DNA of 64,000 nt from the human T2T-CHM13v2.0 reference genome, Homo sapiens. The translations under genes and the position numbers were made by a program. Position 1 is the first letter of the stretch. Each line of letters opens with the position of its first letter. The stretch is from assembly GCA_009914755.4 (NCBI GenBank), contig CP068257.2:37024001-37088000 (forward strand). Reading direction: 5' to 3'. The notes beneath the pieces are model-generated. The model made no database searches. It saw nothing but the letters and a program-made list of their open reading frames with translations, and was not told the origin of the DNA. This document shows positions 21,091-21,873 of the stretch, piece by piece.

Positions 21091-21414
21091 TGACCGCGGA
21101 CTGCCCTCGATGCTGATGAGAACTGGGACGACGTCGCGCAGAGCGTCCGGAGGGAGAGGCGCGGTGCCCGGGACCTCGGTCGTGGGGAGGAGCCGGATAC
21201 AGCCGCCGGGACGCGGGGATGCCGAGGGCACCGCGGCCTGGTCTGACCGACGCACGCGGTGACAGCCGCCCTTGGGAGACGACGGCGTCTGCAACCAGCA
21301 GCCTCCAAAGGGTGCAGCCAGGAGGCTCAGCTTGTCCGCCTCCGGGGCTCGGGGCTAAGCCCCTTCCAGAAGTTTTCGTTTCTACGCGAATTCCGACCGC
21401 AAAATCCAGCTTAC

Positions 21415-21439
21415 CTGAGCGCCGCTCCTCTTCTCTCAT
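21415..21439 (-). other. Candidate minus-strand 5' exon end: ATG (21439-21437) + 8 codons, then a consensus splice donor CAG|GTAAGC (exon ends at 21415)
   Basis: The minus strand reads ..GGGACATGAGAGAAGAGGAGCGGCGCTCAG|GTAAGCTGGATTTTGCGG. It has a perfect 9/9 donor consensus, a Kozak -3 G, and lies within the CpG island. Purely sequence-based. Confidence 0.25.
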
Positions 21440-21873
21440 GTCCCTCGGGGGCCGTCACGACCGTCCCGGAGCGATCTCTAGGAACCTGTCCCGGAGCGAT
21501 CTCTTGCACACTCTCCCCATTCCGACCAAGTGAAAACTACCCATGTCCCTCCCTCTCCAAACTTTAACAGCCAAGAATTTCAGCAAACAGCCAGAAAGAA
21601 AGCTAAGTCTCCCCCCGCCCCCCACCCCAAGGGAAGGGAGGGAATAAGCACTCCTTTAATTTGAAAAATAATAATTAAAACTCCCTCAACTTTTAAGGCC
21701 GAGCAACATAATCTATTAATTGGTCGCTATTAACATGCAGTTTTATTGACCATAGCACACAGAAGTCTGATTGTGAGGGAGGAGTGTTTTCAATGAAAGT
21801 GGAGTTATTTTAGCTGCAGACGTGTTTACATTTCTGTGGTTTAGTCTATAACTTTCTCTTTTTCTTGCTTCAG

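What the first reader, a model, noticed from the sequence alone, without database searches (positions are those of the whole stretch)
21400..21600. Minus-strand ATG followed after 25 nt by a perfect CAG|GTAAGC splice donor at the edge of the CpG island
Read on the minus strand, 21439-21407 is GGGACATGAGAGAAGAGGAGCGGCGCTCAG|GTAAGCTGG. It has an initiator ATG with a -3 G, then 8 codons (MREEERRS) plus 1 nt, then a 9/9 match to the U1 donor consensus. Just 5' of it on that strand (21463-21510) is a 17-bp direct repeat, GTCCCGGAGCGATCTCT x2. If real, a minus-strand gene would start around 21.5-21.6 kb, with its first intron running back through the CpG island. This geometry is common for CpG-island genes. 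Alternatively the motif is chance.
Basis: seen in the sequence. Interest (0 to 1): 0.5.

Follow-up and report, generated by a model that had tools for sequence, protein, structure and literature searches.

The report
Possible upstream first exon, not coding
At the far edge of a primate CpG-island promoter there is a strong splice-donor motif that could end a short non-coding alternative first exon, but the ATG before it is almost certainly incidental, and no expression or conservation data could be reached to show that the donor is used.

Summary
The sequence is as described, with small corrections. The minus-strand ATG is at 21439-21437, followed by MREEERRS plus 1 nt, then CAG|GTAAGC with the exon/intron boundary at 21415|21414. 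A 25-nt tandem duplication with perfect 17-nt cores lies at 21463-21512. The donor matches MAG|GTRAGT at 8/9 positions, not 9/9.

The 9-mer alone is not beyond chance (0.48 expected per window). An open ATG within 30 nt upstream occurs at 34-36% of decoy donors. Only the context is suggestive:
- It is one of 5 top-scoring donor-like sites in 128 kb of strand.
- It lies about 150-200 nt downstream of a same-strand GT/GC box and CCAAT box.
- It sits in the last CpG-rich, G-skewed stretch of the window's only CpG island.
- A purine-rich stretch precedes it, and there is no usable acceptor for about 500 nt upstream.

The island's main bidirectional core promoter lies about 1.1 kb further down the minus strand (20466-20551), with its own donor at 20279. 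A 29-codon uORF precedes the ATG, and the ATG sits in a duplicated 10-mer. No ORF here has any homolog.

Best reading: a minor alternative non-coding first exon of a minus-strand gene (about 0.5). Chance motif is about 0.35, and a true coding start about 0.05. The feature is ordinary. Locus identity, RNA junctions and conservation could not be obtained.

The parts
21409..21417 (-). Donor-like 9-mer CAG|GTAAGC. The last exon base would be 21415 and the first intron base 21414.
   Evidence: It scores 11.15 bits on a rough weight matrix and is the second-strongest minus-strand site in the window. It matches MAG|GTRAGT at 8/9 positions.
21415..21439 (-). ATG plus 8 codons (MREEERRS) plus 1 nt. It contains the purine-rich run GAGAGAAGAGGAG, which resembles an exonic splicing enhancer.
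   Evidence: The enhancer reading rests on my own knowledge and was not tested.
21455..21544 (-). Upstream ORF MGSFHLVGMGRVCKRSLRDRFLEIAPGRS*. Its ATG at 21544 has a strong context (G at -3 and +4), and there is a second in-frame ATG at 21520. It ends 15 nt before the finding's ATG.
   Evidence: sequence.
21463..21512 (.). Two-copy 25-nt tandem duplication. The 17-nt cores GTCCCGGAGCGATCTCT are perfect, and all 4 mismatches fall in the 8-nt spacers.
21437..21446 (-). GAGGGACATG, copy 2; it carries the finding's ATG. Copy 1 is at 21542-21551 and carries the uORF ATG.
   Evidence: These are the only two copies in the window; 0.12 are expected.
21542..21551 (-). GAGGGACATG, copy 1.
21390..21398 (-). 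GGTCGGAAT, copy 2, lying 16 nt into the putative intron. Copy 1 is at 21519-21527. The order is X-Y-(25-mer x2)-X-donor-Y, which suggests an old local duplication.
   Evidence: These are the only two copies in the window; 0.09 are expected.
21611..21628 (-). G-rich GT/GC box GGGGTGGGGGGCGGGGGG (Sp1/KLF type). It is the candidate proximal promoter element, and places a TSS at roughly 21.53-21.58 kb.
   Evidence: The TSS position is an inference.
21719..21723 (-). CCAAT box on the same strand, about 100 nt upstream of the GC box.
20466..20551 (.). Main core-promoter motif cluster of the island: a CCAAT box and four GC boxes on both strands. The GC skew switches from - to + just to its left, as expected of a bidirectional promoter.
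20273..20281 (-). Donor TCG|GTAAGT with last exon base 20279. It probably ends the principal minus-strand exon 1. That exon holds only ATG GGC TGA, so it is non-coding.
   Evidence: 8.9 bits.
19950..21560 (.). The only CpG island in the window.

Best explanation
The donor at 21415|21414 (minus strand) is a promoter-proximal 5' splice site. It ends a short, non-coding alternative first exon ('exon 1a') of roughly 100-170 nt.

This exon would be transcribed from a weak Sp1/CCAAT-type promoter at the distal edge of the CpG island. That edge is about 1.1 kb upstream of the island's principal bidirectional core promoter (20466-20551) and of its own first-exon donor (20279).

A polymerase that starts near 21.53-21.58 kb would present CAG|GUAAGC to U1 snRNP. 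The transcript would then be spliced across the island to a downstream exon, probably one shared with the main minus-strand transcript and probably outside or far down the window. Early U1 binding would also protect the transcript from premature termination.

The ATG is an incidental upstream AUG in a 5' leader or lncRNA, not a start codon.

Shown: the motifs, their order and spacing, the composition, the uORF, and the lack of homologs. Inferred: the TSS, use of the donor, and the splice partner.
For: - The donor is one of 5 sites in 128 kb of strand at or above 11.15 bits. About 5% is expected by chance for such a site in the 1.2 kb upstream of the main promoter on this strand (inference).
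- A same-strand GT/GC box at 21628-21611 and a CCAAT box at 21723-21719 precede it at promoter-like distances.
- The stretch 21401-21600 is still CpG-island DNA (CpG o/e 0.84, GC 0.55), and CpG density collapses just beyond it.
- The RNA-like strand is G-rich over 21300-21700, with + strand skew of -0.35 to -0.41. Co-oriented skew just downstream of a TSS, reaching about as far as the first exon, is the pattern reported for CpG-island promoters. Median first exons there are 178-259 bp (PMC3787257).
- No acceptor scores above about 6 within 500 nt upstream, so a first exon fits better than an internal exon.
- On the minus strand donors come first and the next AATAAA/ATTAAA is at 19538. On the + strand leaving the island, ATTAAA at 21674 precedes the first strong donor at 22012. 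By the U1/PAS model of promoter directionality (PMC11230626, citing Almada 2013) the minus strand is the productive direction.
- A purine-rich GAR run abuts the donor.
- The non-coding reading rests on the uORF, the duplicated ATG-bearing word and the absence of homologs.
Against: - No transcript, CAGE, junction or conservation evidence could be reached.
- The exact 9-mer is expected 0.48 times per window by chance.
- The main promoter-motif cluster and the -/+ skew switch lie at about 20.35-20.55 kb. The 900 nt between the two promoters is skewed the wrong way for an intron of a transcript starting at 21.56 kb.
- Another equally strong donor-like site, + strand at 19661, sits on the other flank and also points into the island. 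It has no promoter-like context, which shows that decoys of this strength occur here.
- The weight matrices used are approximate and recalled from memory.
Confidence: 0.5

Rival explanations
1. The motif is chance. This stretch is only the distal part of the CpG island. It may be transcribed on the + strand as an unstable upstream-antisense RNA from the main bidirectional promoter, and the minus-strand donor-like 9-mer is never used.
For: - The exact 9-mer is expected 0.48 times per window, and 39/100 shuffles have at least one copy.
- An open ATG within 30 nt upstream occurs at 34-36% of decoy donors.
- An equally strong decoy lies at 19661 on the + strand.
- The main promoter motifs and the skew switch are 1.1 kb away. 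The + strand is G-skewed over 20400-21300, which fits + strand transcription towards this region.
- The segment is built from local duplications, so its words need no functional explanation.
Against: - The co-location of a GC box, a CCAAT box, co-oriented skew, CpG-island status, a purine-rich run and a top-5 donor is unlikely to be pure coincidence. I estimate a combined likelihood ratio of about 3; this is inference.
- Dispersed initiation in CpG islands means any minus-strand start upstream of so strong a site would tend to use it (own knowledge).
Confidence: 0.35
2. The ATG at 21439 is the true initiation codon of a protein-coding minus-strand gene, and its first coding exon contributes MREEERRS plus 1 nt.
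For: There is a purine (G) at -3. The frame is open to the donor. Very short first coding exons do exist (own knowledge).
Against: - Two ATGs come earlier on the same strand if the TSS is at 21.5-21.6 kb. The first has a stronger context, and they form a 29-codon uORF that ends 15 nt upstream.
- +4 is A.
- The ATG is part of a duplicated 10-mer.
- The read-through ORF, all island ORFs, and 94 open segments ending at decent donors across the window have no homolog among 5.8 billion proteins.
- 'MREEERRS' is not found in the paper library.
- Caveat: an 8-residue match cannot be detected by the homology tools, and the partner exon may lie outside the window.
Confidence: 0.05
3. The donor ends a long internal exon of a minus-strand transcript that starts further right in the window or beyond it, using the strong acceptors at 21923 or 22086.
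For: - Acceptors of 12.7 and 13.3 bits lie at 21923 and 22086.
- 11 of 13 Alus across the whole window are in + orientation, that is, antisense to a minus-strand transcription unit on both sides of the island. The two-sided binomial p is about 0.02 (my calculation).
Against: - The exon would be 509 or 672 nt long.
- It would contain minus-strand AATAAA (21747) and ATTAAA (21660). Those acceptors would more naturally give a terminal exon that ends before the candidate.
Confidence: 0.07

Closest known systems
Alternative non-coding first exons (exon 1a/1b) within one CpG-island promoter of a vertebrate gene
   Same: Two minus-strand candidate first exons lie about 1.1 kb apart in one island. Each follows its own GC-box/CCAAT elements and ends at a GT donor (21415 and 20279). 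Neither has a credible start codon.
   Different: Use of either exon is not demonstrated here, and the shared downstream acceptor is unknown. The upstream exon sits at the very edge of the island, and the sequence between the two is skewed the opposite way.
Promoter-proximal U1 snRNP site of the U1/PAS axis (Almada et al. 2013; telescripting, Kaida et al. 2010)
   Same: A strong 5' splice site lies within about 200 nt of a putative TSS, with no poly(A) hexamer for about 1.9 kb on that strand. On the opposite strand a poly(A) hexamer comes before any strong donor.
   Different: The axis is a statistical, genome-wide property. It cannot show that this one site is bound or used.
Upstream AUG/uORF in a 5' leader
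   Same: The ATG at 21439 is the third ATG of the putative leader. It follows a 29-codon uORF and opens a frame with no homologs.
   Different: Whether it is translated, or in frame with a downstream CDS after splicing, is unknown.
'Class IV' reverse-skew CpG-island promoters of developmental regulators (Ginno et al. 2013, PMC3787257)
   Same: For the main minus-strand TSS (about 20.4 kb), the 900 nt upstream carry strong reverse skew. The island is flanked by AT-rich blocks dense in homeodomain- and forkhead-like words.
   Different: The class is defined genome-wide with the SkewR program, and after excluding bidirectional promoters. Neither step could be done here, and the gene is unidentified.

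Membership tests
U2-type GT-AG 5' splice site | GT at intron positions +1/+2 and extended complementarity to the 5' end of U1 snRNA (MAG|GTRAGT) | tested here: met
   CAG|GTAAGC matches at 8/9 positions (+6 is C). It scores 11.15 bits on a rough matrix and is among the top 5 of 128 kb of strand.
U2-type GT-AG 5' splice site | Observed exon-exon junction in RNA | not testable with these tools
   No transcript collection was reachable. The metagenome or metatranscriptome contig scan for the exon end found nothing.
U2-type GT-AG 5' splice site | A partner acceptor downstream on the same strand | tested here: inconclusive
   Candidate acceptors exist, for example 20877 (9.3), 19791 (12.0), 19761 (11.4), 17883 (13.8) and 15860 (15.7). 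None can be singled out.
First exon of a CpG-island gene | A transcription start site upstream on the same strand | not testable with these tools
   Only motif evidence is available: the GT/GC box at 21628-21611 and the CCAAT box at 21723-21719.
First exon of a CpG-island gene | Lies in CpG-rich, presumably unmethylated DNA, with skew co-oriented downstream of the TSS | tested here: met
   CpG o/e is 0.84 at 21401-21600. The minus strand is G-rich over 21300-21700. Beyond 21300 the skew reverses.
First exon of a CpG-island gene | No acceptor immediately upstream, so not an internal exon | tested here: met
   All AGs from 21420 to 21900 score 6.3 or less. The nearest strong ones are at 21923 and 22086.
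Protein-coding start codon | First AUG of the transcript in a good Kozak context | tested here: not met
   ATGs at 21544 (G at -3 and +4) and 21520 come first if the TSS is at 21.5-21.6 kb. The finding's ATG has G at -3 but A at +4.
Protein-coding start codon | The encoded protein has homologs or an annotated product | tested here: inconclusive
   There are no homologs for the read-through ORF, the island ORFs or candidate downstream exons. Eight residues are too few to search, and the partner exon may lie outside the window.
Protein-coding start codon | Conservation of the ATG and the frame across species | not testable with these tools
   No orthologous sequence could be retrieved.

The most novel reading that the evidence does not exclude
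The exon is real and begins an unannotated product. One possibility is a new N-terminal isoform or micropeptide starting MREEERRS. The other is a lncRNA that starts at the island's distal edge and runs convergently into the + strand divergent transcript of what looks like a developmental-regulator promoter, giving a sense/antisense overlap over 20.6-21.6 kb that could modulate that promoter.
Probability: 0.05. Interest if true: 0.3.

Novelty: already known. Interest (0 to 1): 0.1.

Why it matters
If the donor is used, it marks a minor alternative 5' end of a gene or lncRNA at a primate CpG island. That is routine annotation detail, and in a well-annotated genome it has very probably been catalogued already. 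If it is not used, it shows how a near-consensus donor with a nearby ATG arises by chance next to promoters. Neither outcome would surprise a specialist or open a new question. The practical lesson is that an ATG next to a donor carries no weight, because a third of the decoys in this window have one. Only the promoter context is informative.

Tried and rejected
- **Homologs of the 118-aa ORF that reads through the donor:** none found.
- **All ORFs of the island on both strands, as one masked query:** none found. I hoped to retrieve orthologous or transcript contigs through them, but the protein collection evidently holds no such primate ORFs, so that comparative route failed.
- **Exon hunt:** I took 94 stop-free segments of at least 30 aa that end at donors of at least 7 bits anywhere in the window, excluding Alus, obvious repeat-derived peptides and the island. 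No annotated coding exon was detectable and the locus stayed unidentified.
- **Rfam at gathering thresholds over the whole window:** nothing. There are no miRNA, snoRNA or curated lncRNA domains to name the locus.
- **Metagenome-contig scans:** one for a conserved-looking 26-mer next to the exon and one for the last 23 nt of the exon. Both were empty.
- **Full-text paper search:** I searched for the peptide, the repeat and the two donor junction strings. Nothing was found.
- **Pfam on long six-frame translations:** I did not pursue it with pasted segments because the expected yield was low.
- **MAFFT alignment of the two X...Y units:** this did not recover a clean duplication. Only the exact shared words are reported.
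- **Transcription-factor identities:** I considered p53 half-site, TEAD, ETS and STAT for the repeated words and dropped them as over-interpretation.
- **TATA box at 21083-21091:** I considered the palindromic TTTATAAA as the relevant promoter. It lies downstream of the candidate exon on the minus strand, so it cannot drive it.

Full report
**1. What is in the sequence**

On the minus strand the text reads GGGAC ATG AGA GAA GAG GAG CGG CGC TCA G|GTAAGC TGG.
- The ATG is at 21439-21437, with G at -3 and A at +4.
- The translation is MREEERRS plus one extra base.
- CAG is at 21417-21415 and GTAAGC at 21414-21409, so an exon would end at 21415.
- Against the usual consensus MAG|GTRAGT the site matches 8 of 9 positions (+6 is C), not 9 of 9.
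- The direct repeat is real. It is a two-copy 25-nt tandem duplication at 21463-21512 with 84% identity. Its 17-nt cores GTCCCGGAGCGATCTCT are perfect, and all four mismatches fall in the 8-nt spacers.

**2. Is it more than chance?**

- The exact 9-mer occurs once in the window. It is expected 0.48 times, and 39 of 100 shuffles have at least one copy.
- I scored sites with a donor weight matrix written from memory. This is approximate and is not MaxEntScan. The site scores 11.15 bits, and only 5 positions in both strands of the window score as high.
- One of those five is on the + strand at 19661, on the other flank of the same CpG island, in AT-rich DNA with no promoter-like context. Decoys of this strength therefore do occur here.
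- The ATG carries no information. 34-36% of donor-like sites in this window have an ATG within 30 nt upstream that is open to the donor.
- Anything beyond chance has to come from the context.

**3. The window and the island**

- The window is primate DNA. At least 13 Alu copies are present, one of them 98% identical to an AluY-type consensus.
- There is a single CpG island, at about 19950-21560.
- Rfam finds no curated RNA family anywhere in the window.
- Inside the island the classical promoter words cluster at 20466-20551: a CCAAT box and four GC boxes on both strands.
- The GC skew switches from C-rich to G-rich on the + strand at about 20350-20400. This is the signature of a divergent or bidirectional CpG-island promoter.
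- Just to the left lies a minus-strand donor, TCG|GTAAGT, with last exon base 20279 (8.9 bits). It follows a stretch whose only ATG is followed at once by a stop (ATG GGC TGA). This is the most likely principal first exon of a minus-strand gene, and it is non-coding.
- The + strand is strongly G-skewed over 20400-21300. That stretch includes a (GGA)n tract and degenerate GC-rich repeats.
- Seen from the main minus-strand TSS this is 'reverse' skew. Ginno et al. 2013 (PMC3787257) found reverse skew enriched at CpG islands of developmental transcription factors.
- The AT-rich, homeodomain- and forkhead-word-dense blocks on both flanks of the island fit that picture. This is a resemblance, not a test.

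**4. The candidate's own context**

On the minus strand the order is:
- a CCAAT box at 21723-21719;
- a GT/GC box, GGGGTGGGGGGCGGGGGG, at 21628-21611;
- about 50-100 nt of plausible start region;
- a stretch that is still CpG-island DNA (CpG o/e 0.84 at 21401-21600, falling to 0.35 just beyond), whose RNA-like strand is G-rich (+ strand skew -0.35 to -0.41 over 21400-21700);
- a purine-rich run, GAGAGAAGAGGAG;
- the donor.

The implied first exon is about 100-170 nt. This is close to the 178-259 bp medians reported for CpG-island genes, where the co-oriented skew tract tracks first-exon length (PMC3787257).

No AG between 21420 and 21900 has a usable polypyrimidine tract. The best scores are 6.3 or less, and the nearest strong acceptors are at 21923 and 22086. 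A first exon therefore fits better than an internal one.

On the minus strand no AATAAA or ATTAAA follows until 19538. On the + strand leaving the island, ATTAAA at 21674 comes before the first strong donor at 22012. Under the U1/poly(A)-signal account of promoter directionality (summarised in PMC11230626, citing Almada et al. 2013), the minus strand is the productive direction at this island.

**5. Against a coding start**

- They open MGSFHLVGMGRVCKRSLRDRFLEIAPGRS*, which stops 15 nt before the finding's ATG.
- The ATG also lies inside the 10-mer GAGGGACATG. That word occurs exactly twice in the window, 105 nt apart, and each copy carries one of these ATGs (0.12 copies expected).
- A second word, GGTCGGAAT, is likewise found only twice, 129 nt apart.
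- The order is X, Y, 25-mer x2, X, donor, Y. The stretch was therefore assembled by local duplications, and duplication is enough to explain the ATG.
- The 118-aa ORF that reads through the donor, all ORFs of the island, and 94 open segments ending at decent donors across the window have no homolog in the 5.8-billion-protein collection.
- Limits: eight residues are too few for any homology tool, and a partner exon could lie outside the window.

**6. Against the 'intron through the island' geometry**

- The main promoter motifs and the skew switch lie about 1.1 kb downstream of the candidate.
- The 900 nt in between are skewed the opposite way to what a minus-strand transcript from 21.56 kb would predict.
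- If the candidate is real, it is a minor upstream alternative start rather than the island's principal gene start.

**7. External evidence**

None could be obtained.
- The protein collection holds no ORFs from this region, which closed the route to orthologous or transcript contigs.
- Metagenome-contig scans for a neighbouring conserved-looking 26-mer and for the exon's last 23 nt were empty.
- A full-text search for the peptide, the repeat and the junction strings was empty.
- The locus was not identified.

**8. Synthesis (inference)**

- A site this strong is expected by chance in about 5% of 1.2-kb stretches. This follows from 5 sites per 128 kb.
- From my own knowledge of annotation, an upstream alternative first exon in the same island with a donor this strong has a prior of similar size.
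- The GC box and CCAAT arrangement, the island status, the co-oriented skew, the purine run and the lack of an upstream acceptor tilt the odds moderately towards use.
- I put a used donor ending a non-coding alternative first exon at about 0.5, a chance motif at about 0.35, an internal exon of a longer transcript at about 0.07, and a true coding start at about 0.05.

**9. Comparison and novelty**

If real, this is an ordinary alternative 5' exon with a promoter-proximal U1 site and an incidental upstream AUG. All of these are well-known kinds, and in a primate reference genome it would very probably be annotated already. If not real, it is a decoy. Interest is low either way. The decisive data are annotation, junction reads, CAGE and phyloP at the stated coordinates. 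They exist publicly but are outside these tools.

Noticed in passing
window 19653-19667 (+), donor boundary 19661|19662: A second top-5 donor-like site, CAG|GTAAGG (11.47 bits), lies on the + strand on the opposite flank of the island. It also points into the island and sits in AT-rich DNA. An acceptor-like TATTTCAG lies only 11 nt upstream. On the minus strand the same stretch falls inside a possible exon at 19761/19791 to 19622 (acceptors 11.4 and 12.0 bits, donor ATG|GTATGT 7.7 bits).
   Followed up: partly
window 21000-21100: There is an AT-rich 'hole' inside the island (GC 0.53, yet CpG o/e 1.35). It holds a palindromic TATA-like TTTATAAA at 21083-21091. It also holds a 15-nt word repeated at 34-nt spacing, AGTGAAAAC[C/G]GTTGC (21021-21035 and 21055-21069), with MYB-like and IRF-like cores. 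It could be a separate regulatory module or TSS.
   Followed up: partly
window 19500-19660 and 21650-21850: Both flanks of the island are AT-rich blocks dense in homeodomain- and forkhead-type words (TAATTA, TTTTATTG, TGTTTAC). The word GCTATTAAYA occurs only twice in the window, once in each flank, on the same strand (0.14 expected). They look like conserved non-coding elements of a developmental locus, but conservation could not be checked.
   Followed up: partly
window 20308-20361, 20555-20663, 20748-20812: There are degenerate GC-rich tandem repeats (units such as GTGCGCGCGTGTCCGT, with periods of 16, 34 and 50 nt). A (GGA)21-like tract gives the + strand a strong G and purine skew.
   Followed up: no
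whole window (Alus at 4660-63476): 11 of 13 Alu copies are in + orientation, on both sides of the island. This would fit the whole window lying inside a minus-strand transcription unit, with the island as an internal promoter. It could also be chance; the two-sided binomial p is about 0.02.
   Followed up: no
window 21923 and 22086 (-), 21747 and 21660 (-): Two strong minus-strand acceptors (12.7 and 13.3 bits) are followed by AATAAA and ATTAAA just upstream of the candidate exon. This arrangement could be the terminal exon of an upstream minus-strand transcript.
   Followed up: no
window 12646-13083 (+) and 38417-38800: A tandemly repeated stretch gives an ORF with a recurring SRFHD-like peptide. 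At about 38.4-38.8 kb there is a purine-rich (GGA/GGGAGA-type) tract, with + strand skew up to +0.82 and a proline-rich ORF on the minus strand. Both look like simple repeats.
   Followed up: no
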